Shown one piece after another: positions 12,142 to 50,460 of a stretch of DNA of 64,000 nt. The stretch is from Cyanophora paradoxa CCMP329 (taxonomy: Eukaryota > Plantae > Glaucophyta): the NCBI GenBank assembly GCA_004431415.1, contig QPMI01000241.1, positions 1-64,000 of the forward strand, read 5' to 3'. Every line of letters starts with the position of its first letter. The stretch's first letter is position 1. The position numbers and the translations under genes are program-made. The notes beneath the pieces were generated by a model that saw nothing but the letters and a program-made list of their open reading frames with translations, did no database searches and was not told the DNA's origin.

Positions 12142-12978
12142 ATGGCAGAGGCACCCACACCAATAGAGCGAATTATAACACCACAGCTATCATTAGCTGC
12201 CCCAGCAAACCATGTTCTACAGCATGCTACCTTTGATGATGTAGAGGGTCTCCAATCGACAGAGGTCCAACCTACAATGAACACCTTTGGTTCCACCCAT
12301 AAACTGAGATTACAGGAACTCAGATGTGATAAAAATAATGGAATAGTTAAGACAACTAAGCTACTTGTCACAAATGCAAACTTTTCTGCTCATTATGGAG
12401 ACCCAGATAGCTATGGAGATCCTCTGTCTACTTATTCTTTTGAATCTAGGTCGGGAGCTATTAACTGCAAATCGGGGGGAGCTTATATTGGTGATGGTCT
12501 TAGGGTTGGTGGGGCTGTTGGAGCGCCTCTATTTGTGAATGATCAACCCAATCCCATTGATCCCAACACAAGAATTCGAACCTATGTCCCCAGCATGAAT
12601 GCCCCATACATTATAAAGATATTCCCAATTGTTGTGAATGAACAAACAGCAGTAGTAGACTCTCTTGTTGAAATTGGTGACCACTACAAGGTAGTTGTGG
12701 ATATCCCACCAGATGTTTATGCTGTTTGTCAAGTTGAAGGTGGAACTCCCAACTTTGCAGTAGTGATCACCCCATATGATAATTTTGGAATTGCTTATCA
12801 TGGAGTCAATTTCGGTTTGGAAGACTATCAGTTTCTGGTTAGAGCCACCAAGTTTGGTATCTACAAGTGTGTGATGTTTGCAGAGAGAACCGATTTTATT
12901 GCAAAGCAGAATACCTATGCTGAATACTATGGGACAAATCGATATTTCCCCATTTTTGGGCAGGATACTGCTCCATAA
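12142..12978 (+). CDS. Viral protein, paralog B (possible fibre/virion protein)
   Basis: Intact 278-aa ORF with N-terminal half clearly homologous to 11273-12118. Confidence 0.75.
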   Translation: MAEAPTPIERIITPQLSLAAPANHVLQHATFDDVEGLQSTEVQPTMNTFGSTHKLRLQELRCDKNNGIVKTTKLLVTNANFSAHYGDPDSYGDPLSTYSFESRSGAINCKSGGAYIGDGLRVGGAVGAPLFVNDQPNPIDPNTRIRTYVPSMNAPYIIKIFPIVVNEQTAVVDSLVEIGDHYKVVVDIPPDVYAVCQVEGGTPNFAVVITPYDNFGIAYHGVNFGLEDYQFLVRATKFGIYKCVMFAERTDFIAKQNTYAEYYGTNRYFPIFGQDTAP

Positions 12979-13000
12979 GAATATTGGTTATATATAGAGT

Positions 13001-13273
13001 ATGGATAGTAAAACAAAAAAGTTTATTGATGCTGCTATGTCAGTCCATGGTAAAGATAAATTCGATTACAGTGAGACACATTACATCAAAGCTCAAGAGA
13101 AAGTATCTGTTAGATGTTTGCAGTGTAATAAGGTAATCCTTACCTATCCCTTTAATCATGTGAAGGGATCAGGGTGTAGGGAATGCAACAAAAAGCACTC
13201 TCAGGCTTACAGGAAAAGGGCTACTTCATCAATAACAGTGGAATATAGGGATGTTTGCATTAGGTTCGATTAG
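13001..13273 (+). CDS. DUF723-like zinc-ribbon protein (homing-endonuclease-associated repeat, no nuclease domain)
   Basis: FIDAAMSVHGKDKFDYSETHY...KVSVRCxxC...PFNHVKGSGCREC pattern. Confidence 0.7.
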   Translation: MDSKTKKFIDAAMSVHGKDKFDYSETHYIKAQEKVSVRCLQCNKVILTYPFNHVKGSGCRECNKKHSQAYRKRATSSITVEYRDVCIRFD

Positions 13274-13302
13274 GTTTAATTAATTTTTCTAAGGTATTCT
13301 TA

Positions 13303-13701
13303 ATGGAGACTCAATACAGAGGCTTTCATGTTATGCTTGATTACAAAGCTAAATCAGCTATTGCAACAGGACATGAGCATGTTAGCTTCCTAGGTAATTG
13401 GATTATGGGAACCCTTGAACAAGCTATATTGAGACAAGGTATTAGGATTGTTCATAAACACTGTGAAATATTTGATGGCAAAGTATCACCTCCTGGTTTT
13501 GCATTGGTTCTGCTATTAGATGAAAGCCATTGCACAGCTCATTGTTATTCCAATGAAGGCATGTTAGCAATTGATATATTCAGTTGTGGTAAAGAAGCTC
13601 AGCATAAAACACAAGCAGTTGCAGATGAGATCGATAAAACAATGAATTTCCTCACATTTGAGAAGACTGAGAGACATAAACATGATAGATTCCCGTTTTG
13701 A
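13303..13701 (+). CDS. speD: Prokaryotic-type pyruvoyl S-adenosylmethionine decarboxylase proenzyme (SpeD/SpeH family)
   Basis: 132 aa; GFHVMLD...PPGFALVLLLDESHCTAHCYSNEGMLAIDIFSCG contains the ESH self-cleavage site and the DIFSCG motif. Confidence 0.88.
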   Translation: METQYRGFHVMLDYKAKSAIATGHEHVSFLGNWIMGTLEQAILRQGIRIVHKHCEIFDGKVSPPGFALVLLLDESHCTAHCYSNEGMLAIDIFSCGKEAQHKTQAVADEIDKTMNFLTFEKTERHKHDRFPF

Positions 13702-13976
13702 TGAGTTTCTATTATGGTGATCAGGGTGATTTACCTTTTTTATTACAATGGCAATCGTTAAAAAAGGATATAATATATCCTTTCCTACAATAGCTTTCTA
13801 CAATGATTTTCTTTCTACAGTAGCTTTTGTTACAATAGAATTCTACTGTATGATGTAGCCGAAATATGAATGCACCCTACATTAAGCAATGTCAAGTATT
13901 TCGAATACTATTCGATTTCCTTACAATAACACTCAGCATCTCCCCTAGATTCCCCCTATTATATTATATTTATATT

Positions 13977-14693
13977 TAAGTGGACTCAAGGTTGACTCAT
14001 ATTAATCGTAAAAGTAGTAATAGTATATGGATTTTGTTACGAATTCAATGCAAGGGTTGACTAAGTGGGTTGAGTTGACTCAAATTTCACAGGAAATATT
14101 TGGGACCTAAAGTTTTCTAAAAAGGATTTGAAAAAATGTGTCAACTCCCCCCACTTAGTCAACCCTGACCATAAACAGTAAGGATTTGAGCTAACAAGTA
14201 TCACAAAGTGAACATTTTGAGTCCACTTAGAAGATCCACCTAACAATTTAGAGTCAAATTTACTTGGGAATTCGATTTGTATGAAAAAGTGAGTCCACCC
14301 TGACCATATTCAATAAGCATTCCTCTTAATCCCCTTGTTTATATTTACATTGATTAATATTTAATACTAAGTGGACTCATGGTTGATTCATATTAATCGT
14401 AAAAGGAGTAAATGTATATAAAAATGTGACCATTTCAATGCTAAGGTTGACTAAGTGGGTTGAGTTGACTCAAATTTCAGAGGAAATTTTGAGATCCAAA
14501 GAATATTCTATAAAAGATTTTGAAAAATGTGTCAACTCCCCCACTTAGTCAACCCTGACCATATACAGTAAGCATAAGAACTTAAATGTATCACAAAGTG
14601 AACATTATGAGTCCACTTAGAAGATCCACTTTTGAAATATAAGTTGATTTTGCTTGAAATTTCAAAGTTGATCTAAAAGTGAGTCCACCCTGA
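13977..14693. repeat. Two diverged ~325-bp direct repeats (period ~390 bp) with internal inverted repeats, viral subterminal region
   Basis: Copies at 13977-14303 and 14368-14693. Copy 1 has AGGGTTGACTAAGTGGG (14053-14069) and its reverse complement (14150-14166); copy 2 has a near-identical pair. Confidence 0.85.
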
Positions 14694-15081
14694 TTGATTA
14701 TGGTAACAAAGTTGACTAAGTTGACTAAGTTGAGTCATCTTAAGAAATTCAAGGAGACTAAGAGTTCAAAATGTTTATGAAAAGTGAGTCAACTTAGACC
14801 ACTTATGGTAACAAAGTTAAATATTTAATTGATTTAATAGGAAAAGAACATGATTTAATCGAATTTATTGATATAATTCCGATTAGATTCATTTAGGATT
14901 CAATTAAGATTAATCGAAGTTATAGATATAATTCCGATTAACTACAATTAAGATACAATATCGATTAATCGAGTTTATCGATATAAAATCGATTAAATTA
15001 ATTGAAAATGCATTTAAAAATATGAAAATTCATGTGAAAATTCAAATAAATTAATCGATTTTATTGATATAACATCGAATC

Positions 15082-15154
15082 ACACATATGAATATTCATA
15101 TTTTAATCCTGAGGCGGAACGCCGAGGGATTAAAATATGAATATTCATATGTGT
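15082..15154. repeat. Terminal hairpin of the virus (28-bp perfect arms, each with an internal 16-bp palindrome)
   Basis: ACACATATGAATATTCATATTTTAATCC (15082-15109) is the exact reverse complement of 15127-15154. The spacer contains GGCG-GAA-CGCC. Confidence 0.92.
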
Positions 15155-18100
15155 CTCAGCGTCTCTTGTCTACTTCTCGGGAAGCGCGACAGGCTCTCCC
15201 GTTACGACAACAACTGGAGCCTCGTCAACCCTTACTTCTTCAGGAACAGTAACTGTAGAGTCCTTGTACGGTCTGTGACCGCCATTTGATCCACTGGTGA
15301 CGCCCCGGAGCCCTTTTCACTCTGCGCGCAGCCAAGTCGGTGGCGACGCCGTCGGTGGCGGTCTCGTTGAGCGGGGCGACGGCGGTTTCGGCGGCAGTGT
15401 CCTGGAGCACGACGGGGGCGTCGAGCAGGGAGCCAACGTACGCGAACGTGACCGTGAGCTGCTCGAGCGACGGCGCGGCGGGCTCTGCGTCGACGGCGGC
15501 GGTGACGTCGGGCGCGGGGACGGGCTCGGCCACTGTGGAGGTCAGCGCGGGCTCCGGGACGTGGGATACGGCGTCGCACGTGACGAGCTGCGCGGCGACG
15601 GTGTACTACTCGTACGCGGGGGCGGCGTCGAGCGCCACAGCGTACTCGACGGGTGCGCGGGCGGGGCGGGCGAGAGGCCAGGGGCGGGGGCTGATGCGGG
15701 GCGCGGGGCGCAGTGGACGCAAAGACGGTGGCGAGCGTGGCGGTGGGGACGCCGACCCCGGAGTCGACGACGTCGGTGACGGTGCCCGTGACCTGGGCGC
15801 TGTCGGCGGCGGGGTACAGCGGGAGCGGCGTGGCGCCGACGTACGGGGCGCTGGAGGTGAGCTGCTCTGGGCGGGCGTGACGCGGACGGGCTCGCTGGCG
15901 AGCGGCGCGATCGCGGCGGGGGCGACGAGCGCCGACGTGACGGTCTCGGGCTCCCCGAGATGAGCGCCTCGTACGAGATCACGTGCAGCGGCGCGAAGCT
16001 GACGGCGAACGCTGGAACCGTGACGGGCGCGGCGCCGACCTTCACGCCAGGCGCGCGGCGACCACGGCGAGCTCGAACTCGGGGACGGTGGACTCGCTGT
16101 TCGGTGCGCAAGCCCGGGGTCGGAATAGAGCCGCGGGGCGCCTCGCTGGGGCCCTGACCCGCGCTCGCAGCCAAGTCGGTGGCGACGCCGTCGGTGGCCG
16201 TCTCGTTGAGCGGGGCGACGGCGGTTTTGGCGGCAGTGTCCTGGAGCACGACGGGGGCGTCGAGCAGGGAGCCAACGTACGCGAACGTGACCGTGAGCTG
16301 CTCGAGCGACGGCGCGGCGGGCTCTGCGTCGACGGCGGCGGTGACGTCGGGCGCGGGGACGGGCTCGGCCACTGTGGAGGTCAGCGCGGGCTCCGGACGT
16401 GGGATACGGCGTCGCACGTGACGAGCTGCGCGGCGACGGTGTACTACTCGTACGCGGGGGCGGCGTCGAGCGCCACAGCGTACTCGACGGGTGCGCGGGG
16501 CGGGGCGGGCGAGGGGCCAGGGGCGGGGCTGATGCGGGGGCGCGGGGCGCAGTGGACGCAAAGACGGTGGCGAGCGTGGCGGTGGGGACGCCGACCCCGG
16601 AGTCGACGACGTCGGTGACGGTGCCCGTGACCTGGGCGCTGTCGGCGGCGGGGTACAGCGGGAGCGGCGTGGCGCCGACGTACGGGGCGCTGGAGGTGAG
16701 CTGCTCTGGGGCGGGCGTGACGCGGACGGGCTCGCTGGCGAGCGGCGCGATCGCGGCGGGGGCGACGAGCGCCGACGTGACGGTCTCGGGGCTCCCCGAG
16801 ATGAGCGCCTCGTACGAGATCACGTGCAGCGGCGCGAAGCTGACGGCGAACGCTGGAACCGTGACGGGCGCGGCGCCGACCTTCACGCCAGGCGCGGCGG
16901 CGACCACGGCGAGCTCGAACTCGGGGACGGTGGACTCGCTGTTCGGTGCGCAAGCCCGGGGTCGGAATAGAGCCGCGGGGCGCCTCGCTGGGGGCCCTGA
17001 CCCGCGCTCGCAGCCAAGTCGGTGGCGACGCCGTCGGTGGCCGTCTCGTTGAGCGGGGCGACGGCGGTTTTGGCGGCAGTGTCCTGGAGCACGACGGGGG
17101 CGTCGAGCAGGGAGCCAACGTACGCGAACGTGACCGTGAGCTGCTCGAGCGACGGCGCGGCGGGCTCTGCGTCGACGGCGGCGGTGACGTCGGGCGCGGG
17201 GACGGGCTCGGCCACTGTGGAGGTCAGCGCGGGCTCCGGGACGTGGGATACGGCGTCGCACGTGACGAGCTGCGCGGCGACGGTGTACTACTCGTACGCG
17301 GGGGCGGCGTCGAGCGCCACAGCGTACTCGACGGGTGCGCGGGGCGGGGCGGGCGAGGGGCCAGGGGCGGGGGCTGATGCGAGGGCGCGGGGCGCAGTGG
17401 ACGCAAAGACGGTGGCGAGCGTGGCGGTGGGGACGCCAACCCCGGCGTCGACGACGTCGGTGACGGTGCCCGTGACCTGGGCGCTGTCGGCGGCGGGGTA
17501 CAGCGGGAGCGGCGTGGCGCCGACGTACGGGGCGCTGGAGGTGAGCTGCTCTGGGGCGGGCGTGACGCGGACGGGCTCGCTGGCGAGCGGCGCGATCGCG
17601 GCGGGGGCGACGAGCGCCGACGTGACGGTCTCGGGGCTCCCCGAGATGAGCGCCTCGTACGAGATCACGTGCAGCGGCGCGAAGCTGACGGCGAACGCTG
17701 GAACCGTGACGGGCGCGGCGCCGACCTTCACGCCAGGCGCGGCGGCGACCACGGCGAGCTCGAACTCGGAGACGGTGGACTCGCTGTTCGGTGCGCAAGC
17801 CCGGGGTCGGAATAGAGCCGCGGGGCGCCTCGCTGGGGGCCCTGACCCGCGCTCGCAGCCAAGTCGGTGGCGACGCCGTCGGTGGCCGTCTCGTTGAGCG
17901 GGGCGACGGCGGTTTCGGCGGCAGTGTCCTGGAGCACGACGGGGGCGTCGAGCAGGGAGCCAACGTACGCGAACGTGACCGTGAGCTGCTCGAGCGACGG
18001 CGCGGCGGGCTCTGCGTCGACGGCGGCGGTGACGTCGGGCGCGGGGACGGGCTCGGCCACTGTGGAGGTCAGCGCGGGCTCCGGGACGTGGGATACGGCG

Positions 18101-19851
18101 TCGCACGTGACGAGCTGCGCGGCGACGGTGTACTACTCGTACGCGGGGGCGGCGTCGAGCGCCACAGCGTACTCGACGGGTGCGCGGGGCGGGGCGGGCG
18201 AGGGGCCAGGGGCGGGGGCTGATGCGGGGCGCGGGGCGCAGTGGACGCAAAGACGGTGGCGAGCGTGGCGGTGGGGACGCCGACCCCGGAGTCGACGACG
18301 TCGGTGACGGTGCCCGTGACCTGGGCGCTGTCGGCGGCGGGGTACAGCGGGAGCGGCGTGGCGCCGACGTACGGGGCGCTGGAGGTGAGCTGCTCTGGGG
18401 CGGGCGTGACGCGGACGGGCTCGCTGGCGAGCGGCGCGATCGCGGCGGGGGCGACGAGCGCCGACGTGACGGTCTCGGGGCTCCCCGAGATGAGCGCCTC
18501 GTACGAGATCACGTGCAGCGGCGCGAAGCTGACGGCGAACGCTGGAACCGTGACGGGCGCGGCGCCGACCTTCACGCCAGGCGCGGCGGCGACCACGGCG
18601 AGCTCGAACTCGGGGACGGTGGACTCGCTGTTCGGTGCGCACGCCCGGGGTCGGAATAGAGCCGCGGGGCGCCTCGCTGGGGGCCCTGACCCGCGCTCGC
18701 AGCCAAGTCGGTGGCGACGCCGTCGGTGGCCGTCTCGTTGAGCGGGGCGACGGCGGTTTCGGCGGCAGTGTCCTGGAGCACGACGGGGGCGTCGAGCAGG
18801 GAGCCAACGTACGCGAACGTGACCGTGAGCTGCTCGAGCGACGGCGCGGCGGGCTCTGCGTCGACGGCGGCGGTGACGTCGGGCGCGGGGACGGGCTCGG
18901 CCACTGTGGAGGTCAGCGCGGGCTCCGGGACGTGGGATACGGCGTCGCACGTGACGAGCTGCGCGGCGACGGTGTACTACTCGTACGCGGGGGCGGCGTC
19001 GAGCGCCACAGCGTACTCGACGGGTGCGCGGGGCGGGGCGGGCGAGGGCCAGGGGCGGGGGCTGATGCGGGGGCGCGGGGCGCAGTGGACGCAAAGACGG
19101 TGGCGAGCGTGGCGGTGGGGACGCCGACCCCGGAGTCGACGACGTCGGTGACGGTGCCCGTGACCTGGGCGCTGTCGGCGGCGGGGTACAGCGGGAGCGG
19201 CGTGGCGCCGACGTACGGGGCGCTGGAGGTGAGCTGCTCTGGGGCGGGCGTGACGCGGACGTACCCCGGCACTTTTGGCTCACCCACGCATTGCGTCGAA
19301 ATTTGAGTCATTTTTCGACGCAGTGCTCCGAAATTTCACGCAATGCTTGAAAATGCGTCGGGGTTTCAAGCAGCGCTTGAAACCCCACGCAGTGCGACGC
19401 AGCTGCCCGAAACTTCGAAGCACCGCGACTGCGCCAAATTCCCACTGCGTCTGGCTGCGTCGAGCGATGCAGCCTCAGGGCCTGGCAGCGCTAGCAGGCG
19501 CTATAGCTAGTACTAGTAGCTCGTAACCCATGCGGATTGCGGATTCAATGATTGCAGCGCGCGCGCTCGGGATCCACTGGGGCAGATCCGAGTGCGCGGG
19601 CGGATTGCAGCGCGCGCGCGGCTGTACCAGTACCGCAGTACTAGTATATACGTACGTGCATGCTTAGTTTGCTCGCGCTTCTGGCCGCTGGGCCGCGGCC
19701 GGGCCACAGCGGCGACAGGCCCGTGGCCAGCTATTGTGAATCTGTGGCATGCGCTGTTCATAAAAAGATGATGAACTGGAAGTATACAGGCTGTCCGGGA
19801 TCCGAAATCTATCACACGCACCAGCCCCTGAAGCCCGAATCCGAGCGCTAG

Positions 19852-22800
19852 CTAGTTGCCGAGAAAACGAAAACTAACTGCAATCAGCTGCCGAACAGCG
19901 GGAAGTGCTGCTGTCCTGCCTGCAGCATCGTCCGCCGGCGGCACAGGCAGAATGCGCCCTCGCCGCACTCGCTGCGGCAAGTCACCGCGCTCGCTGCGCT
20001 CAGAATAAGCGGACTCCTAGCTTAAAGAGAGAAGTGGGAAGCAAGGGGACGTCTGCGCACCGAGGAGAGGGTAGCAGTCCCGCTTCCTCCGCATCCAGCA
20101 TCCCTTGCCCGTGCCCGACGTCGAAGGCAGAGCGCTCGCTGCGCACGGAGAGGAATGTCAATCTAATGAAAAGAGAATGCGCGCCGATTAACAGACCGCA
20201 CCTGCGGCCGAGCGCCCACACCATGGACTGGAAGAGCGCCTCCTCTGGCCAAAAGGGCGGAGGCGTTGATGGCGCTCGCCGCGCTGCGGCATCACGGTCA
20301 GCGCGCGGATCGAACGAAGATAAGCGAGTGGTGACCGGCAAACGGACCGCTGTGCACCACAGCAGGGTGAGTGAGCAGCAGGCCGGCTCGCGCCGCGTCC
20401 GGGCCGGTCCGGCATCCCTCGACCGCGATGCCGAAGCTGCGTTCGGAGCGTCAACCGAAAGAAGAGAAGAATGCGCGCCGGCAAACGACCGCACCTGCCG
20501 CACCTGCGCCCAGCGGCCGCAAGCACAAGAACTCCGAGGCCGCGGCCGTCCAGAAGCCACGCGTCCGAGAACGGCACCCGCTCCGCTGCGCACGCGGCCG
20601 GCGTCACAAAAACATCAACGCGAGAGTAGCGGAAACAAGAGCGAGCACCTGGCCTGCGGGAGAAGACGCTAGGCGAACTGGATGGTGGTGCTCTGCTCGC
20701 GCGGGCCAGTCACCCCGTTCCCTGGACCGCCAGCGGAATGAGGGATTGGGGCAAAGGAGATGAAACGAAAAAGCACCTTGCTTCGCATCGGCAGCCGCCT
20801 TCTCCTTTTTGCGCGAGCCGACCAAAAGAAGGAACACTTGGCGGCGGCGGCCGGGCTAAGAATGCAGATCAAGGGCGCTTGAAGAGGCAAGAACGACGCG
20901 TACACGAGCGCTCTTCGCCACGAGCGGGCGCCCGCCGCCCTGGGGCAGCGCTCTGCTTTTGAAATCAGGCCGGCGACAGGCGGGGACGCGAGAGGATGCA
21001 AGTAGGCACCTTCGAACGTCGTTCGCGCTCGAGGCTCGTCAAGTTCGCGGCAGCTGTGCGGACTCCGTTTGACCTGTTTGAAATTGTGGAGTAAGGGAGA
21101 CCAGGATGCGCTGCGGTGGAGAGCCCAGCGCCGACGCACCGAGATTGCATTGCGTCCCGTGCTGGAGGCCGCAGCCAGTTCTTGCCCTGCGTGCTCTTCA
21201 AAGTGCAAGGCCGGAATTCGGGGTACACAGCTGTTGGGCGAAAGCGGCAGCGACACCAACAGCGATATCGATCGAGGATGCTTGAGGTTGCCCTTCGGCT
21301 CAGCTTTCCGAGGAAGCCTGAGCGGTCCCATGCTCCTTCGCAGCTCGCTCGGCCGCGGTGCCGAGCACGTTGGCGGAAGCTCGCAGATGCGGCGCGCGGC
21401 CCTTTCGTTAGCTATAGCTAGGCGCATGTGGCCCGTGTTCTCGCAGCTGCATGTCTATGCCCTGGCGTGGCCGTGTTTCCGTGCGGCGCCGCGTTCACGG
21501 CCTGCCTTCCTCCCACAAACCGACGACGTGCGTCTATGCCGTGCCCTCCGCGTTCCACGCGTGACGTACAGCTCACTCGATTTCGCAGGGATCGCCGGCG
21601 GTGAGCCCCGTCGGCCCAGTTGGTTGGCCCTGCGCCCAAGCCGAGCCAAGGTGCGGCGGCCGCCTGGCCGGGAACGGGGGGACAGGCGAACTGCCGCACG
21701 CTTCTCGCTGTTGATCTCTCCTTCGTAGCGGGCGATGGAGTGCCTGCACGCCGCTGGCGGCGAGCGCGCCCTGCCGAGCGCGTCGCCATCGCCGGGGGTG
21801 GGCCACCGGACCATAGCTTTGCGTCAGCGGCGCGCGAACGCATGTCTCACGATTCTTGCTTGCGTTCCAGGCGCTGGATCGCGCGCGCCGTCTCCAGGCT
21901 CCGAATTCTGGACCCCTCTTCCACAGCTTGGTGAGGCTCAGGCCTAGACGAGGTGAGTTGAGCGGTCTGTGTGCGTACGCGTCGCTGACAAGGCGCTCCT
22001 GTCGCGCAGGATGATCGAGTCCCGGGGCGATGGTCGGAGGGAGCGGAGGGCGGCAGCATGGATTGCACGGCGGGGCGTAGGATCGGCGGGCGGCGGCCCG
22101 GGGCGCACGCCTCGCGCGCCGCCGGCTGCCCGCCCGCCCCGGCCCGCCCCGGCGCCGTCGCTTCGCCCGCCCCGGCGCCTTCGCCCCGCTCCGCCCCGTC
22201 GCTTTCGCCCCGCCCGCAGAGTCGGTGCGCCGTGCTGAGCGCCCTGCCGGCACAGCCCGGCCTGCCTGCTGCTGACGCCCTCGCAGCTCTCGAGGATTTT
22301 GAATTTTCGGGGCGTCCCGCTGCCGCGGGAGAGGATCTTCGAGCGCCCCGCCGCCCCGCCGTCCTCAGGGGACAGCGCCGGGGGTCGCGGAAGCTCAGCA
22401 GGCGGCGGCGCGGCTCACCTGGCGGGGCGGAGGCGCGGCGGGCGGCGGCACGGCTCGCCGGGAGGGGCGGCGGCGCGGCGGGCGGCGCGCAGCTCGCCGG
22501 GCGGGGCGAGGGTGCGGCGGGCGGCGGCGAAGCTCGGCGGGCGGGGCGCGGGAGCGGCGGGCGGCGGCGCGGCTCGCCAGGCGGGGCGGAGGCGCGGCGG
22601 GCGGCGCCGCGGCTCGCGGGGCGGGGCGGAGGCGCAGCGTGCTGCGGCCCGGCTCGCCGCACGGGGTGGAGGCGCGGCTGGCGGCGGCGCGGCTCGCCAG
22701 GGGGGCGGAGGCGCAGCAGGCGGACAGGACGGCAGGCGCGGCGGGCGGCGGCGTGGCTCGCGGGGCGCCGCGGTGGCGCGACGCGGCTTCGATTCGTGAT

Positions 22801-25800
22801 CACTGATCATGAGCGTGATGATCTCTTGTCATTCAATTTAAACAGATCCGAGGCTGCGCTGCCCTGCAACTTGGCACAAATGAAGTGTTGGCAATTGGGG
22901 CCCACTATTGCTTGGCGAGGCACCAGCACCTTTTCAGCGCTTGCCACTATTAAAATCAAATCTAGCGCCTTTGATATAGTCCAGGTACGCTTCTCCAGTC
23001 AGTGAAAAGGCCGGGATCTTTTCCTGGCTTCATGATCAATTCTCATGATCATCATGAACACTGCATGCATGGGTGCTCAGATCCTCACTGCGAGCCAAAT
23101 TGAAACTCGGGGCCCATATTGCATACGCCCGCGAGCATGCTGTTGGGGGTTCTCGAGGGCGCTGGATTTGATTATGAAGTCGGTTGAAGACAGATCCGAG
23201 GCTGCGCTGCCCTGCAACTTGGCACAAATGAAGTGTTGGCAATTGGGGCCCACTATTGCTTGGCGAGGCACCAGCACCTTTTCAGCGCTTGCCACTATTA
23301 AAATCAAATCTAGCGCCTTTGATATAGTCCAGGTACGCTTCTCCAGTCAGTGAAAAGGCCGGGATCTTTTCCTGGCTTCATGATCAATTCTCATGATCAT
23401 CATGAACACTGCATGCATGGGTGCTCAGATCCTCACTGCGAGCCAAATTGAAACTCGGGGCCCATATTGCATACGCCCGCGAGCATGCTGTTGGGGGTTC
23501 TCGAGGGCGCTGGATTTGATTATGAAGTTGGTTTAAGACAGATCCGAGGCTGCGCTGCCCTGCAACTTGGCACAATTGCAAATGAAGTGTTGGCAATTGG
23601 GGCCCACTATTGCTTGGCGAGGCACCAGCACCTTTTCAGCGCTTGCCACTATTAAAATCAAATCTAGCGCCTTTGATATAGTCCAGGTACGCTTCTCCAG
23701 TCAGTGAAAAGGCCGGGATCTTTTCCTGGCTTCATGATCAATTCTCATGATCATCATGAACACTGCATGCATGGGTGCTCAGATCCTCACTGCGAGCCAA
23801 ATTGAAACTCGGGGCCCACATTGCATACGCCCGCGAGCATGCTGTTGGGGTTCTCGAGGGCGCTGGATTTGATTATGAAGTTGGTTTAAGACAGATCCGA
23901 GGCTGCGCTGCCCTGCAACTTGGCACAAATGAAGTGTTGGCAATTGGGGCCCACTATTGCTTGGCGAGGTACAAGCACCTTTTCAGCGCTTGCCACTATC
24001 AAAATCAATTCTAGCGTTTTTGATATAGCCTAGATACGCTTCTCCAGTCAGTGAAAAGGCCGGGATCTTTGCTGGGCCTCATGATCATGATCAGTGATCA
24101 TGATCATCATGAGCACTACACCGCCTGGCGACCCGCGCCACCGCCCGCCGCGCCTCCGCTCCGCCCCGCGAGCCGCGCCGCCACCCTGAGCCCCCGCCCC
24201 GTCCGACGAGCCGCGTCGCCGCCCGACGCGTTTCCGCCCCGCCCCGCGAGCCGCGGCGCCGCTCGCCGCGCCCCGCCCCGCCCGGCGACCCGCGCCGCCG
24301 CCCGCAGCGCCTCCGACCTGCCCGGCGGGCCGCGCCTCCGCCCGCCGCGCTCCGCCCGCCCCGCGAGCCGCGGCGCCGCCCGCCGCGCCTCCGCCCCGCC
24401 CGCGAGCCGCGCCTCCGCCCGCCACGCCTCCGCCCTGCCCGGCGAGCCGCGCCTCCGCTCGCCGCGCCTCCGCCCCGCCCGCGAGCCGCGGCGCCGCCGC
24501 CGCGCCCCCGCCCCGCCCGCGAGCTGCGCCGCCACCCGCTGAGCCCCGCCCTGCCCGGAAAGCCGAGTCGCTGCCCGACGCGCCTCCGCCCCGTCCGGCG
24601 AGCCGCGTCGCCGCCCGCCGAGCCTCCGTCCCGCCCGCGAGCTGCGCCGCCGCCCCCGCGCCCCCGCCCCGCCCAGTGAGCCGCGCCGCCACCCTGCCCG
24701 GAGAGCCGCGCTCGCCGCGTCTCCACCTGGCCGGAGGGAGCTGTGCCACCACCGCTGTCTCGCTGAACCCGCCAGGCAAGTTAAGCGGGGGAGAGAGGGG
24801 GAGGGAGGGAGAGCCGTGGGCGAGGGGAGGGCATACTCCGAGGGCGCTTCGGCGCGGCGGCGGCAGGGCTCTTGCGGCCGCGGGGTGCACAGGCAGCCGC
24901 GAGGGCGGGCGCGGGGCGCTTGTCGTTGTGCGGCGCGGCGGGGGCGGCGGGGCGCTCGAAGATCCTCTCCCGCGGCAGCGGGACGCCTCGAAAATTCAAA
25001 ATCCTCGAGAGCTGCGAGGGCGTCAGCAGCAGGCAGGCCGGGCTGTGCCGGGCAGGGCGCTCGGCACGGCGCACCGTCTCTGCGGGCGGGGCGAAAGCGA
25101 CGGGGCGGGGCGGGGCGACGGCGACGGGGCCGGGCGAAGCGACAGCGCCGGGGCGGGCCGGGAGCCGGCGGGGCTGCACGGGGCTGCACGGGGCGTGCGC
25201 CCCGGGCCGCCGCCCGCCGATCCTACGCCCCGCCGTGCAATCCATGCTGCCGCCCTCCGCTCCCTCCGACCATCGCCCCGGGACTCGATCATCCTGCGCG
25301 ACAGGAGCGCCTTGTCAGCGACGCGTACGCACACAGACCGCTCAACTCACCTCGTCTAGGCCTGAGCCTCACCAAGCTGTGGAAGAGGGGTCCAGAATTC
25401 GGAGCCTGGAGACGGCGCGCGCGATCCAGCGCCTGGAACGCAAGCAAGAATCGTGAGACATGCGTTCGCGCGCCGCTGACGCAAAGCTATGGTCCGGTGG
25501 CCCACCCCGGCGATGGCGACGCGCTCGGCAGGGCGCGCTCGCCGCCAGCGGCGTGCCGGCACTCCATCGCCCGCTACGAAGGAGAGATCAACAGCGAGAA
25601 GCGTGCGGCAGTTCGCCTGTCCCCCGTTCCCGGCCAGGCGGCCGCCGCACCTTGGCTCGGCTTGGGCGCAGGGCCAACCAACTGGCCGACGGGGCTCACC
25701 GCCGGCGATCCCTGCGAAATCGAGTGAGCTGTACGTCACGCGTGGAACGCGGAGGGCACGGCATAGACGCACGTCGTCGGTTTGTGGGAGGAAGGCAGGC

Positions 25801-27334
25801 CGTGAACGCAGCGCCGCACGGAAACACGGCCACGCCAGGGCATAGACATGCAGCTGCGAGAACACGGGCCACATGCGCCTAGCTATAGCTAACGAAAGGC
25901 CGCGCGCCGCATCTGCGAGCTTCCGCCAACGTGCTCGGCACCGCGGCCGAGCGAGCTGCGAAGGAGCATGGGACCGCTCAGGCTTCCTCGGAAAGCTGAG
26001 CCGAAGGGCGTCCTCAAGCATCCTCGATCGATATCGCTGTTGGTGTCGCTGCCGCTTTCGCCCAACAGCTGTGTACCCCGAATTCCGCGGCCTTGCACTT
26101 TGAAGAGCACGCAGGGCAAGAACTGGCTGCGGCCTCCAGCACGGGACGCAATGCAATCTCGGTGCGTCGGCGCTGGGCTCTCCACCGCAGCGCATCCTGG
26201 TCTCCCTTACTCCACAATTTCAAACAGGTCAAACGGAGTCCGCACAGCTGCCGCGAACTTGACGAGCCTCGAGCGCGAACGACGTTCGAAGGTGCCTACT
26301 TGCATCCTCTCGCGTCCCCGCCTGTCGCCGGCCTGATTTCAAACGCAGAGCGATGCCCCAGGGCGGCGGGCGCCGCTCGTGGCGAAGAGCGCTCGTGTAC
26401 GCGTCGTTCTTGCCTCTTCAAGCGCCCTTGATCTGCATTCTTAGCCCGGCCGCCGCCGCCAAGTGTTCCTTCTTTTGGTCGGCTCGCGCAGAAAGGAGAA
26501 GGCGGCTGCCGATGCGAAGCAAGGTGCTTTTTCGTTTCATCTCCTTTGCCCCAATCCCTCATTCCGCTGGCGGTCCAGGGAACGGGGTGACTGGCCCGCG
26601 CGAGCAGAGCACCACCATCCAGTTCGCCTAGCGTCTTCTCCCGCAGGCCAGGTGCTCGCTCTTGTTTCCGCTACTCTCGCGTTGATGTTTTTGTGACGCC
26701 GGCCGCGTGCGCAGCGGAGCGGGTGCCGTTCTCGGACGCGTGGCTTCTGGACGGCCGCGGCCTCGGAGTTCTTGTGCTTGCGGCCGCTGGGGCGCAGGTG
26801 CGGCAGGTGCGGTCGTTTGCCGGCGCGCATTCTTCTCTTCTTTCGGTTGACGCTCCGAGCTCAGCGAGCGCTGCGCCGTCGCGGCGACCGCGTTCCGGGC
26901 GCTCTCAATCTCGGTGTGGGCGCTCGGCGACAGGTGCGGTCTGTTTATTGGCGCGCGTTCTCTCTTCTTTTGATTGAGATTCCTCTCCGTGCGCAGCGAG
27001 CGCTCTGCCTTCGACGTCGGGCACGGGCAAGGGATGCTGGAAGCGGGGACGGGCCTCCTGCTCTCTCCTTGCTGCGGTGCGCAGACGTCCCTTGCTTCCA
27101 CTTCTCTCTTTATGCTAGGAGCCCGCTTATCCTGATGCGCGCAGCGCAGCGAGCGCGGCGACGTTCCGCAGCGAGTGCGGCGAGGGCGCATTCTGCCTGG
27201 GCCGGAGGCGGGCTGCTGGCGATCGGCTGGGCATGCGCAGGCGGCGGACGATGCCGCAGGCAGGACAGCAGTACTACCTGCTGTTCGGCAGCTGATTGCA
27301 GTTAAACGTTAGTTTTCCTTTTCTCGGCAACTAG
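19852..27334. repeat. Long internal inverted repeat (arms ~19852-22810 and ~24085-27334)
   Basis: The same ORF texts appear on opposite strands (e.g. 20604..20837- vs 26463..26696+). Arm ends are CTAGTTGCCGAGAAAA / TTTTCTCGGCAACTAG. Confidence 0.9.
22843..24070. repeat. ~348-bp tandem repeat x3.5 in the loop of the fold-back element
   Basis: CAGATCCGAGGCTGCGCTGCCC starts at 22843, 23191, 23539 and 23892. Confidence 0.92.
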
Positions 27335-30300
27335 CGCGGGGGACGACGCCGCTTGCAGGTCATTGCGTATTGTGTAAAGCCCTTACAGCCTAAGTTGCAG
27401 GCGGGGCAGATTGGGGCAGATGAGCTCGAGGGCGCCGCGCACGATCGGCCACGAGGCCGCTAGCTGTTTCACAGTGTGCGCACATCTACACGAGGGCGCC
27501 GCGCGGGCTCGGGATTGGCCCCACGAGGGCGCTGAGCTGTGTGCGCATGCGCACATGTACTACGGTACGACCTAGGGGCGCCGGCGCCACGCGTACGCGT
27601 GCCCCGTCGAGCTTGACGACCGACTCTCTCTCTCGGCGAGCTCGCCGAGTCGAGCCGCGTCGAGCTCAGGCCCATAGCAACGAGCTCGACGACCGTCGAC
27701 CGGTACCGGCCACGCTGCTGGCTATAGCTACGTATACGCCGGCGCAGTGCGTCGGACACTGCGTCCAGCTGCGTCGAGCGGCGCAGTGCGTCAAACTTCG
27801 AGTGCGTCGAGCGACGCAGTTTCGTGAAACTTGGCGCACTGCTTGAAACTGCGTGGAGATTTCGAGCAGTGCTTCATTTCCGACGCAATGCTTGAAATTC
27901 CCACGCAATGCTTGAAATTTCCGACGCAATGCGTGGGTGAGCCAAAAGTGCCGGGGTAGCGGACGGGCTCGCTGGCGAGCGGCGCGATCGCGGCGGGGGC
28001 GACGAGCGCCGACGTGACGGTCTCGGGGCTCCCCGAGATGAGCGCCTCGTACGAGATCGCGTGCAGCGGCGCGAAGCTGACGGCGAACGCTGGAACCGTG
28101 ACGGGCGCGGCTCCGACCTTCACGCCAGGCGCGGCGGCGACCACGGCGAGCTCGAACTCGGGGACGGTGGACTCGCTGTTCGGTGCGCAAGCCCGGGGTC
28201 GGAATAGAGCCGCGGGGCGCCTCGCTGGGGGCCCTGACCCGCGCTCGCAGCCAAGTCGGTGGCGACGCCGTCGGTGGCGGTCTCGTTGAGCGGGGCGACG
28301 GCGGTTTCGGCGGCAGTGTCCTGGAGCACGACGGGGGCGTCGAGCAGGGAGCCAACGTACGCGAACGTGACCGTGAGCTGCTCGAGCGACGGCGCGGCGG
28401 GCTCTGCGTCGACGGCGGCGGTGACGTCGGGCGCGGGGACGGGCTCGGCCACTGTGGAGGTCAGCGCGGGCTCCGGGACGTGGGATACGGCGTCGCACGT
28501 GACGAGCTGCGCGGCGACGGTGTACTACTCGTACGCGGGGGCGGCGTCGAGCGCCACAGCGTACTCGACGGGTGCGCGGGGCGGGGCGGGCGAGGGGCCA
28601 GGGGCGGGGGCTGATGCGGGGGCGTGGGGCGCAGTGGACGCAAAGACGGTGGCGAGCGTGGCGGTGGGACGCCGACCCCGGAGTCGACGACGTCGGTGAC
28701 GGTGCCCGTGACCTGGGCGCTGTCGGCGGCGGGGTACAGCGGGAGCGGCGTGGCGCCGACGTACGGGGCGCTGGAGGTGAGCTGCTCTGGGGCGGGCGTG
28801 ACGCGGACGGGCTCGCTGGCGAGCGGCGCGATCGCGGCGGGGGCGACGAGCGCCGACGTGACGGTCTCGGGGCTCCCCGAGATGAGCGCCTCGTACGAGA
28901 TCACGTGCAGCGGCGCGAGGCTGACGGCGAACGCTGGACCGTGACGGGCGCGGCGCCGACCTTCACGCCAGGCGCGGCGGCGACCACGGCGAGCTCGAAC
29001 TCGGGGACGGTGGACTCGCTGTTCGGTGCGCAAGCCCGGGGTCGGAATAGAGCCGCGGGGCGCCTCGCTGGGGGCCCTGACCCGCGCTCGCAGCCAAGTC
29101 GGTGGCGACGCCGTCGGTGGCGGTCTCGTTGAGCGGGGCGACGGCGGTTTCGGCGGCAGTGTCCTGGAGCACGACGCGGGCGTCGAGCAGGGAGCCAACG
29201 TACGCGAACGTGACCGTGAGCTGCTCGAGCGACGGCGCGGCGGGCTCTGCGTCGACGGCGGCGGTGACGTCGGGCGCGGGGACGGGCTCGGCCACTGTGG
29301 AGGTCAGCGCGGGCTCCGGGACGTGGGATACGGCGTCGCACGTGACGAGCTGCGCGGCGACGGTGTACTACTCGTACGCGGGGGCGGCGTCGAGCGCCAC
29401 AGCGTACTCGACGGGTGCGCGGGGCGGGGCGGGCGAGGGGCCAGAGGCGGGGCTGATGCGGGGGCGCGGGGCGCAGTGGACGCAAAGACGGTGGCGAGCG
29501 TGGCGGTGGGGACGCCGACCCCGGAGTCGACGACGTCGGTGACGGTGCCCGTGACCTGGGCGCTGTCGGCGGCGGGGTACAGCGGGAGCGGCGTGGCGCC
29601 GACGTACGGGGCGCTGGAGGTGAGCTGCTCTGGGGCGGGCGTGACGCGGACGGGCTCGCTGGCGAGCGGCGCGATCGCGGCGGGGGCGACGAGCGCCGAC
29701 GTGACGGTCTCGGGGCTCCCGAGATGAGCGCCTCGTACGAGATCACGTGCAGCGGCGCGAAGCTGACGGCGAACGCTGGAACCGTGACGGGCGCGGCGCC
29801 GACCTTCACGCCAGGCGCGGCGGCGACCACGGCGAGCTCGAACTCGGAGACGGTGGACTCGCTGTTCGGTGCGCAAGCCCGGGGTCGGAATAGAGCCGCG
29901 GGGCGCCTCGCTGGGGCCCTGACCCGCGCTCGCAGCCAAGTCGGTGGCGACGCCGTCGGTGGCGGTCTCGTTGAGCGGGGCGACGGCGGTTTCGGCGGCA
30001 GTGTCCTGGAGCACGACGGGGCGTCGAGCAGGGAGCCAACGTACGCGAACGTGACCGTGAGCTGCTCGAGCGACGGCGCGGCGGGCTCTGCGTCGACGGC
30101 GGCGGTGACGTCGGGCGCGGGGACGGGCTCGGCCACTGTGGAGGTCAGCGCGGGCTCCGGGACGTGGGATACGGCGTCGCACGTGACGAGCTGCGCGGCG
30201 ACGGTGTACTACTCGTACGCGGGGGCGGCGTCGAGCGCCACAGCGTACTCGACGGGTGCGCGGGCGGGGCGGGCGAGGGGCCAGGGCGGGGGCTGATGCG

Positions 30301-48300: not shown

Positions 48301-50460
48301 GGAACCGTGACGGGCGCGGCGCCGACCTTCACGCCAGGCGCGGCGGCGACCACGGCGAGCTCGAACTCGGAGACGGTGGACTCGCTGTTCGGTGCGCACG
48401 CCCGGGTCGGAATAGAGCCGCGGGGCGCCTCGCTGGGGGCCCTGACCCGCGCTCGCAGCCAAGTCGGTGGCGACGCCGTCGGTGGCGGTCTCGTTGAGCG
48501 GGGCGACGGCGGTTTCGGCGGCAGTGTCCTGGAGCACGACGGGGGCGTCGAGCAGGGAGCCAACGTACGCGAACGTGACCGTGAGCTGCTCGAGCGACGG
48601 CGCGGCGGGCTCTGCGTCGACGGCGGCGGTGACGTCGGGCGCGGGACGGGCTCGGCCACTGTGGAGGTCAGCGCGGGCTCCGGACGTGGATACGGCGTCG
48701 CACGTGACGAGCTGCGCGGCGACGGTGTACTACTCGTACGCGGGGCGGCGTCGAGCGCCACAGCGTACTCGACGGGTGCGCGGGGCGGGGCGGGCGAGGG
48801 GCCAGGGCGGGGCTGATGCGGGGCGCGGGGCGCAGTGGACGCAAAGACGGTGGCGAGCGTGGCGGTGGGGACGCCGACCCCGGAGTCGACGACGTCGGTG
48901 ACGGTGCCCGTGACCTGGGCGCTGTCGGCGGCGGGGTACAGCGGGAGCGGCGTGGCGCCGACGTACGGGGCGCTGGAGGTGAGCTGCTCTGGGCGGGCGT
49001 GACGCGGACGGGCTCGCTGGCGAGCGGCGCGATCGCGGCGGGGCGACGAGCGCCGACGTGACGGTCTCGGGCTCCCCGAGATGAGCGCCTCGTACGAGAT
49101 CACGTGCAGCGGCGCGAAGCTGACGGCGAACGCTGGAACCGTGACGGGTGCGGCGCCGACCTTCACGCCAGGCGCGGCGGCGACCACGGCGAGCTCGAAC
49201 TCGGAGACGGTGGACTCGCTGTTCGGTGCGCACGCCGGGTCGAATAGAGCCGCGGGGCGCCTCGCTGGGGCCCTGACCCGCGCTCGCAGCCAAGTCGTGG
49301 CGACGCCGTCGGTGGCGGTCTCGTTGAGCGGGCGACGGCGGTTTCGGCGGCAGTGTCCTGGAGCACGACGGGGGCGTCGAGCAGGGAGCCAACGTACGCG
49401 AACGTGACCGTGAGCTGCTCGAGCGACGGCGCGGCGGGCTCTGCGTCGACGGCGGCGGTGACGTCGGGCGCGGGGACGGGCTCGGCCACTGTGGAGGTCA
49501 GCGCGGGCTCCGGGACGTGGATACGGCGTCGCACGTGACGAGCTGCGCGGCGACGGTGTACTACTCGTACGCGGGCGGCGTCGAGCGCCACAGCGTACTC
49601 GACGGGTGCGCGGGGCGGGCGGGCGAGGGCCAGGGGCGGGGCTGATGCGGGGCGCGGGCGCAGTGGACGCAAAGACGGTGGCGAGCGTGGCGGTGGGGAC
49701 GCCGACCCCGGAGTCGACGACGTCGGTGACGGTGCCCGTGACCTGGGCGCTGTCGGCGGCGGGGTACAGCGGGAGCGGCGTGGCGCCGACGTACGGGGCG
49801 CTGGAGGTGAGCTGCTCTGGGGCGGGCGTGACGCGGACGGGCTCGCTGGCGAGCGGCGCGACCGCGGCGGGGGCGACGAGCGCCGACGTGACGGTCTCGG
49901 GGCTCCCCGAGATGAGCGCCTCGTACGAGATCACGTGCAGCGGCGCGAAGCTGACGGCGAACGCTGGAACCGTGATGGGCGCGGCGCCGACCTTCACGCC
50001 AGGCGCGGCGGCGACCACGGCGAGCTCGAACTCGGAGACGGTGGACTCGCTGTTTGGTGCGTGCTGCAAAGAGAGTGGCTTCGGCGCGCTTCTTAATCAG
50101 GATTTCCTTGCAGCCAAATCGGTCGTGGCGATTGGTATTTCGAGTGTTTCCGTCATCAACGAGACTTCAGTTCGCGTCGGAACTCTTTCCTGGACACTGT
50201 CTTCCTTGGGAATCGATGGCTCTCCAACTAATCTTACGCTTTATATCACATGCATTAATAATATGGCTTCCAGCATTCATATCGATTACCTTCAGGCAGG
50301 AGTCACCTCAAGTACCGAAGCTCTTCTGGAGTCTTTACTGTGGGATACTGCACAGCATGCTACGACTTGTACTGCTGTACTTACTTACTCGAATCAAGAG
50401 AAAGTCACGACTGAAACGGTAGTCGTTTCAGCAACAGCTCCTACGCCCAGCCCGTCGCCG

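What the first reader, a model, noticed from the sequence alone, without database searches (positions are those of the whole stretch)
15082..15156. Virus ends in a nested hairpin exactly at the host junction
Seen: 28-bp perfect arms, each containing the 16-bp palindrome ATATGAATATTCATAT, a short mismatched stretch, and a GGCG-GAA-CGCC mini-hairpin. Host exon sequence starts immediately after; the exact end could be 15152-15156. Known: canonical Polintons have simple TIR ends for protein priming, whereas hairpin termini occur in self-priming or rolling-hairpin genomes and resolvase targets. Inference: this element may replicate or integrate through a hairpin telomere, a different mechanism from Polintons.
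Basis: partly seen in the sequence, partly recalled or inferred. Interest (0 to 1): 0.8.

Follow-up and report, generated by a model that had tools for sequence, protein, structure and literature searches.

The report
G·A-capped hairpin tip, integrated virus
A virus-like element present in dozens of copies in a likely algal genome ends at its host junction in a 73-base fold-back sequence that nearly always faces the same way and likely lets the free viral DNA end prime its own copying, a kind of end already described, untested, in a 2026 preprint.

Summary
The hairpin is real: 28-bp perfect arms (15082-15109, 15127-15154) around a 17-nt spacer, z = -13. It is the true end of a multi-copy, AT-rich, likely Polinton-like virus. 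In public DNA runs of the organism the terminus is tens of times deeper than single-copy flanks, shared contigs stop at 15154, and six different flanks follow. It is not a fold-back artefact, not a concatemer or protelomerase palindrome, and not a loxP-like crossover site. The tip (T·G, tandem G·A/A·G, GAA triloop) is predicted to be stable only on the 3'-ending strand. The spacer has one orientation in run X4 (about 90-100 ends, inverted share under about 5%); one inverted junction appears in X3. This argues against AAV- or poxvirus-like flip/flop. Best reading: a single-strand 3' fold-back end that likely primes replication and is joined to host DNA at its last base. The left end, target-site duplication, replicase and integrase lie outside the window and are untested. 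Terminal palindromes and the priming model are already in a July 2026 preprint (Halocafeteria). The scan found this kind of end before on other DNA, including another element of this genome.

The parts
15082..15109 (+). Inner arm of terminal hairpin (28 bp), with 16-bp palindrome at 15086-15101
15110..15126 (+). Asymmetric 17-nt spacer: T·G, tandem G·A/A·G, 4-bp GC stem (15113-16/15120-23), GAA triloop (15117-19); predicted stable on the + strand, whose 3' end is at the junction
   Evidence: sheared GA-AG stacking from PMC8163305 passages
15127..15154 (+). Outer arm (28 bp), with 16-bp palindrome at 15135-15150; 15154 is the last base shared by the copies
15020..15047 (.). Two degenerate copies of the 16-bp palindrome (2 and 3 mismatches), inside an imperfect inverted repeat 14958-15006/15041-15089
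   Evidence: 4 matches in window, 0.02 expected
13702..15081 (.). Non-coding AT-rich (30% GC) subterminal region with 390-bp (13977-14693) and 55-bp (14855-14998) repeats; likely the terminal inverted repeat, other end not seen
15155..15270 (+). Predicted host exon piece cut by the insertion; diverged first unit of the 844-bp repeat gene
   Evidence: X1 contig of depth 33 covers 15126-15323 without differences
15271..15331 (+). Predicted 61-nt GT..AG host intron
110..1316 (-). Frameshifted capsid-like gene; homologous along its length to a 456-aa EukProt Cyanophora paradoxa protein (P0004); capsid identity rests on recalled motifs only
   Evidence: folds inconclusive
1421..3328 (.). Two divergent, frameshifted genes with minor-capsid-like motifs (recalled; no database match)
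4520..4759 (-). Patatin-like phospholipase fragment
   Evidence: Pfam PF01734 E 3.7e-4, below curated cut-off
7271..10924 (+). Tail-fibre-like protein with C-terminal Peptidase_S74 chaperone domain
   Evidence: Pfam E 2.2e-15; PHROG tail fibre E 7.7e-28
11234..12978 (+). Two paralogous unknown ORFs (33% identical); 2 relatives at 63-64% in public assemblies
13303..13701 (+). S-adenosylmethionine decarboxylase-like ORF, last gene before the terminus
   Evidence: Pfam E 3.7e-11

Best explanation
The 73-base palindrome is the last sequence of a multi-copy, likely Polinton-like virus, and on the strand that ends 3' at the host junction it is predicted to fold into a G·A-capped hairpin that likely primes copying of the free viral DNA and would be joined to host DNA at its last base by an end-joining integrase. 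Shown: exact shared end at 15154, many flanks, one spacer orientation in X4. Inferred: the released or displaced strand snaps back and its paired 3'-OH is extended. An asymmetric step (strand-specific resolution, or an integrase or packaging step that accepts only the G·A form) keeps one orientation. The integrase joins the 3'-OH, and host repair copies the hairpin out into the duplex palindrome seen here.
For: Perfect pairing up to the last shared base gives a primer-ready 3' end. The unpaired positions read GA opposite GA and the loop reads GAA on the 3'-ending strand; the other strand has C·A, TC/TC and TTC. Tandem GA-AG stacks unusually well in DNA (PMC8163305 passages), and only GNA triloops form mini-hairpins (PMC13037366 passages). 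My rough arithmetic puts both motifs on one strand at about 1 in 2000 by chance, chosen after the fact. Junctions are precise: shared contig 15119-15154 in X3 and X4 and six flanks diverging within 0-4 bases of the arm edge. In Halocafeteria such tips go with non-pPolB replicases, RVE integrases and TSDs.
Against: Simple hairpin-transfer replication inverts the spacer, but X4 shows no inversion: contig 15081-15115 is unbroken at depth 2210; simulated probability 0 of 150 at 25-50% inversion, upper 95% bound about 5-7%. The model therefore needs an extra asymmetric step. The closing pair of the triloop is G-C, not the canonical C-G of GCGNAGC (abstract). No replicase, nickase or integrase lies in the window (Pfam and PHROG scans), the left end is unseen, and no free viral DNA was examined. 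Four copies of a 16-bp dyad fit duplex protein binding equally well.
Confidence: 0.45

Rival explanations
1. The palindrome is a recognition signal, not a primer: a primase-helicase or the integrase binds the dyad array or the folded template end, and synthesis starts de novo or with a terminal protein on open linear ends.
For: Explains the fixed orientation without an extra step. Four copies of a 16-bp dyad lie within 130 bp of the end. Mini-hairpins occur at primase origins of phage G4 and ssiA (PMC13037366 passages). Inverted repeats are proposed as joint origin and integration sites in PLVs (PMC11296320 passages).
Against: A fully paired 3'-OH on any exposed strand would be extended by a polymerase whether or not it is a binding site (inference). 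Duplex binding does not need pairing to the very last base or a one-strand G·A cap.
Confidence: 0.33
2. The palindrome arose once by accidental fold-back repair of an end and was passed on passively to all copies.
For: Named as the alternative in the Halocafeteria preprint. No excess conservation of the hairpin over the neighbouring 298 bp could be shown. A single-copy end truncated inside the loop exists in 4 of 4 runs.
Against: The structured G·A tip on one strand is not expected from an accident, and terminal palindromes recur in five Halocafeteria subtypes.
Confidence: 0.08
3. Covalently closed hairpin telomere or symmetric rolling-hairpin end (poxvirus, AAV or N15 style), resolved by a resolvase, Rep or protelomerase.
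For: One X3 contig (454 nt, depth 3.3) joins a GC-rich flank to arm plus two spacer letters in the inverted orientation. In X3 the inside depth is 103 against 50 going into the forward spacer, and 5 of its 13 rows were not listed, so a larger inverted share in that run is not excluded.
Against: X4, which shares at least two insertion flanks with X3 or X1, has no such junction among about 90-100 ends. No inside sequence is mirrored beyond the outer arm, and the centre is an asymmetric spacer, not a perfect dyad.
Confidence: 0.08
4. Tyrosine-recombinase crossover site of loxP type (two binding arms around an asymmetric spacer).
For: Arm-spacer-arm layout; YR is common in PLVs and leaves no TSD (PMC12220804 passages).
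Against: Crossover in the spacer would leave half-sites at the junctions. The copies keep the whole palindrome and the flanks start at the outer edge.
Confidence: 0.04
5. Assembly or library fold-back artefact.
For: The window has many frameshifts, as in long-read assemblies. The window's own flank was seen in only 1 of 4 runs.
Against: Short-read contigs of 4 of 4 runs laid carry the hairpin at high depth. The X1 contig joins 29 element bases to 169 flank bases without differences, just under the tool's 31-letter rule for a bridge. No mirrored inside sequence.
Confidence: 0.01

Closest known systems
Terminal palindromes of endogenous virophages (subtypes 1, 2, 5, 6) and PLV subtype 4 of Halocafeteria seosinensis (bioRxiv 10.64898/2026.07.28.741278; section 7 read in full, plus passages)
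   Same: Palindrome at the very end of an AT-rich integrated virus next to host DNA (52 nt in subtype 5); hairpin priming proposed and untested; accidental annealing named as the alternative.
   Different: Here 73 nt with a one-strand G·A cap and nested 16-bp dyads, in a likely glaucophyte. Spacer orientation was measured here ('flip' occurs 0 times in the preprint's main text). TIR, TSD, replicase and integrase are known there and unseen here. The preprint's supplements could not be seen and may hold palindrome sequences.
Parvovirus rolling-hairpin telomeres (PMC12297876 passages)
   Same: 3'-terminal imperfect palindrome that folds and primes synthesis.
   Different: Element is over 15 kb, integrated in many copies and likely dsDNA. 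No Rep seen in the window, and no flip/flop mixture in X4. Only the orientation-conserving left end of heterotelomeric parvoviruses such as MVM (recalled, no call) behaves this way.
Canonical Polintons/Mavericks and PgVV-type PLVs (PMC10120064, 10.1101/2022.07.28.501842, PMC12220804 passages)
   Same: AT-rich insert in a GC-rich protist genome, long repeat-built non-coding end, fibre and lipase genes.
   Different: 'hairpin' occurs 0 times in the first two texts and 'palindrom' 0 times in the first and third. The capsid-like protein had no family match, so the group is unassigned.
Mriyaviricetes / Gamadviridae and NCLDV-like PLV clusters (PMC11253617 part 2 of 7; 10.64898/2026.06.19.733378 parts 1-3 of 5)
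   Same: Small protist viruses with NCLDV-like capsid; many carry HUH nickases that could resolve hairpins.
   Different: No HUH, VLTF2/3 or RuvC gene found in the 15 kb in view; capsid class not established.

Membership tests
Palindrome-tipped endogenous PLV/virophage (Halocafeteria type) | Palindrome forms the terminus, directly next to host DNA, in the copies | tested here: met
Palindrome-tipped endogenous PLV/virophage (Halocafeteria type) | Same palindrome at both ends (TIR) and a target-site duplication | not testable with these tools
   left end outside window; no whole genome held; no related loci
Palindrome-tipped endogenous PLV/virophage (Halocafeteria type) | Non-pPolB replicase and RVE integrase | not testable with these tools
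   none among the ORFs scanned in 1-15154; rest of element unseen
Polinton-like virus | Double jelly-roll major capsid, minor capsid, A32 ATPase | tested here: inconclusive
   capsid-like gene has 2 full-length relatives, no Pfam, PHROG or PDB match; models pLDDT 34-35; fold search no E<=0.001; ATPase not in window
Polinton/Maverick | pPolB plus RVE integrase, TIR, 5-6 bp TSD | not testable with these tools
   genes and left end outside the window
Homotelomeric parvovirus / AAV-type rolling hairpin | 3'-terminal palindrome able to fold | tested here: met
Homotelomeric parvovirus / AAV-type rolling hairpin | Flip and flop ends in similar numbers | tested here: not met
   X4 inverted share under about 5-7%; X3 shows 1 inverted junction and is ambiguous
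Protelomerase or poxvirus-type closed telomere (concatemer junction) | Inside sequence mirrored on both sides of the palindrome centre | tested here: not met
   outward extension 0; no strand-change joint listed
Tyrosine-recombinase site of loxP type | Crossover within the spacer, half-sites at junctions (recalled definition) | tested here: not met
   junctions at the outer arm edge
Helitron | 3' end CTRR with a GC-rich hairpin about 10 nt upstream (recalled definition) | tested here: not met
   end reads TGTGT and the AT-rich hairpin is flush with it
Mriyaviricetes (Gamadviridae) | HUH endonuclease, VLTF2/3, RuvC, NCLDV-type MCP | not testable with these tools
   none in the part in view; definition

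The most novel reading that the evidence does not exclude
A group of integrating dsDNA viruses replicates without a terminal protein from G·A-capped 3' hairpins, using an orientation-conserving resolution step unknown outside heterotelomeric parvoviruses, and integrates by joining the hairpin's own 3'-OH to host DNA.
Probability: 0.25. Interest if true: 0.75.

Novelty: new member of a known kind. Interest (0 to 1): 0.42.

Why it matters
How Polinton-like viruses without protein-primed polymerase copy their ends is open. This element offers a short, precisely mapped end in tens of copies in an organism with many public sequencing runs. Its one-orientation spacer is a constraint any model must meet: it argues against plain AAV- or poxvirus-style flip/flop and points to an asymmetric step or a recognition role. 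The 73-mer can be tested directly in vitro.

Tried and rejected
No whole genome was held, so the other end, TSD and remaining genes are open. All 8 viral-contig scans gave no relative: exact arm 0 hits; six protein or alignment queries none; the 17-nt spacer gave 9 hits, 0 of 9 inside a long hairpin. The metagenome scan for two 16-bp dyads gave 10 loci, all unrelated tandem repeats with other spacings and no blastn match to the element; the tblastx step printed nothing. Capsid fold: both models pLDDT under 35, fold search meaningless; the protein atlas did not complete. The capsid fragment search for longer proteins gave 0 of 372 candidates; 57 of the 59 hits match only short, mostly repeated stretches and were set aside. 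Rfam matches to miRNA precursors are far below gathering scores and reflect the hairpin only. No RNA holder listed. The window's flank 15184-15323 had no cover in X2, X3, X4; a hole proves nothing. Depths are contig means and GC bias is likely, so end counts are orders of magnitude only. Element body depth was not measured, so two ends per copy is not shown. An Illumina adapter tail at 15106 in X4 was ignored.

Full report
Observation. The sequence at 15082-15154 is as described. The arms are perfect for 28 bp, do not extend outward, and enclose a 17-nt spacer; each arm holds a 16-bp palindrome. It is the longest of 3 perfect inverted repeats (arms of 14 bp or more, loop up to 60) in the window. 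It folds at -30.6 kcal/mol with z = -13.3 and 0 of 200 shuffles as stable, and would be expected about 1e-9 times in 15 kb. Two degenerate copies of the 16-bp dyad lie at 15020 and 15032 (4 matches, 0.02 expected).

Left side. Bases 1-15154 are AT-rich (40% GC in the genes, 30% in the last 1.4 kb). They encode a tail-fibre protein with an S74 chaperone domain, an AdoMet decarboxylase, an F5/8 domain and a patatin fragment. A frameshifted gene at 110-1316 matches along its length a 456-aa protein labelled Cyanophora paradoxa in EukProt (61% over the searched stretch). I read it as a major capsid protein from recalled motifs only: Pfam, PHROG, PDB and two AlphaFold models did not confirm it. No replicase, integrase, HUH or resolvase gene was found in this part. 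The element is likely a Polinton-like virus of unassigned group in a glaucophyte-like host (inference).

Right side. 15155-15270 translates in frame as a diverged copy of the exon of the 844-bp repeat array and is followed by a 61-nt GT..AG intron at the position of the 67-nt intron of the array units. The insertion thus cuts a predicted host exon.

Is it the true end? One search listed 24 runs of one organism, 14 holding half or more of the words. I laid 4 of them (X1 and X3 are one sample) and then 2 of those again on a narrower stretch. Depth falls from thousands to 33 or 0 after 15157. The shared contig ends at 15154 in X3 and X4. Six different flanks, the window's included, diverge within 0-4 bases of the arm edge. 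Contig depth ratios give about 60-65 ends in X1 and about 90-105 in X4 (135 against the lower single-copy value); these are rough because of GC bias. The X1 contig joins 29 element bases to 169 flank bases with no difference, just under the tool's 31-letter bridging rule; the window's flank was not covered in the other 3 runs. One single-copy end truncated within the loop at 15119 occurs in 4 of 4 runs. The runs share insertion flanks, so they are separate libraries of one lineage, not separate populations, and one may be the source of the window.

Orientation of the spacer. Contig edges behave as 31-letter graph nodes (the X3 contig 15082-15148 ends where the truncated copy joins). In X4 the contig 15081-15115 runs unbroken from inside base through arm into the spacer at depth 2210, between neighbours of 2300 and 2138 (8 of 42 rows listed). 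A simulation with random sequences of the same geometry gave such an unbroken contig in 0 of 150 trials at 25% or 50% inversion, and in 4% of trials at 5% inversion with 95 ends; the upper 95% bound is about 5-7%. The caveat is that graph simplification could drop weak links. X3 speaks partly against this: one 454-nt contig (depth 3.3) shows a flank joined to arm plus two spacer letters in the inverted sense, and depth is 103 inside but 50 into the forward spacer. With 5 of 13 rows unlisted I could fit both a rare and a near-half inverted share. Since X4 lacks any such junction, I take the X3 case as a library template switch, a rare inversion or a strain-specific copy (inference).

Anatomy of the tip. 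On the + strand, which ends 3' at the junction, the fold is 28 Watson-Crick pairs, T·G, GA opposite GA, four G-C pairs and a GAA loop; the other strand has C·A, TC/TC and TTC. The folding program scores the strands almost alike (-30.6 and -29.5), but tandem GA-AG stacks exceptionally in DNA (PMC8163305, passages), and only GNA triloops form mini-hairpins, which occur at primase origins (PMC13037366, passages). The closing pair is G-C rather than the canonical C-G. The tip therefore looks selected as single-stranded DNA on the 3'-ending strand (inference).

Mechanism. Most likely the free or displaced strand folds back and its paired 3'-OH primes synthesis; an end-joining integrase links that 3'-OH to host DNA and repair copies out the hairpin (0.45). 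Fixed orientation is the weak point, because copying a hairpin once inverts it; an asymmetric resolution or a selective integrase is required. The main rival, a recognition signal for primase or integrase on open ends, explains the orientation for free (0.33). Symmetric closed telomere (0.08), accident (0.08), loxP-like site (0.04) and artefact (0.01) fit poorly.

Comparison. The Halocafeteria preprint (10.64898/2026.07.28.741278; section 7 in full; passages) reports palindromes at TIR tips next to TSDs in four virophage subtypes and one PLV subtype, linked to non-pPolB replicases and RVE integrases, and draws the hairpin-priming model. Other papers seen: PMC10120064 (passages; no mention of Cyanophora, hairpin or palindrome in the main text), 10.1101/2022.07.28.501842 (passages), PMC11253617 (part 2 of 7 and passages), 10.64898/2026.06.19.733378 (parts 1-3 of 5), PMC12220804, PMC10288648, PMC11296320, 10.64898/2026.10.13.758929 and PMC12297876 (passages). 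No supplements were read; those of the preprints could hold palindrome sequences or Cyanophora elements. Nine searches turned up no count of tip orientation and no G·A-capped tip in a PLV, within the held library and the listings shown. Earlier scan notes describe the same kind of end in chytrid and protist genomes and a 95-nt G·A-capped tip on another element of this genome; they are unchecked leads, and I had found the preprint and searched for the G·A motif before seeing them.

Verdict. A real, exact, multi-copy terminal hairpin; a new member of a recently described kind, with a one-strand G·A cap and near-fixed orientation as added detail. Function inferred, not shown. Interest 0.42.

Noticed in passing
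window 19262-27958: An 8.7-kb second insertion in the repeat gene, with 37-bp perfect terminal inverted repeats, a 7-bp target duplication (GCGGACG) and long internal inverted repeats (about 19875-22720 against 24120-27300) around a short tandem array; looks like a non-autonomous fold-back DNA transposon.
   Followed up: partly
window 15155-50400: Predicted giant host gene of about 30 near-identical 844-bp exon/intron units (75% GC) coding Ser/Thr/Ala/Val-rich repeats; the first and last units are diverged and much lower in GC (54%, 47%), as expected if homogenisation drives GC up in the middle.
   Followed up: partly
window 50326-53000: Array of 42-bp repeats inside long ORFs on both strands (49606-53457 +, 50394-55460 -), no Pfam match.
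   Followed up: no
runs X1-X4, joins at window 15119: A single-copy end that keeps only half the loop and the outer arm, preceded by AT-rich sequence not found in the window; possibly a deletion derivative or recombinant.
   Followed up: partly
window 13001-13273 and 13303-13701: A small endonuclease-associated domain ORF and an AdoMet decarboxylase-like ORF are the last genes before the terminus.
   Followed up: no
window 5536-10924: Three fibre-related ORFs share domains (36-54% identity), with 12-aa His-Thr-His repeats at 7910-8400.
   Followed up: no
window 14053-14166 and 14445-14556: Each 390-bp subterminal unit carries its own imperfect inverted repeat (35-bp arms, 86%).
   Followed up: no
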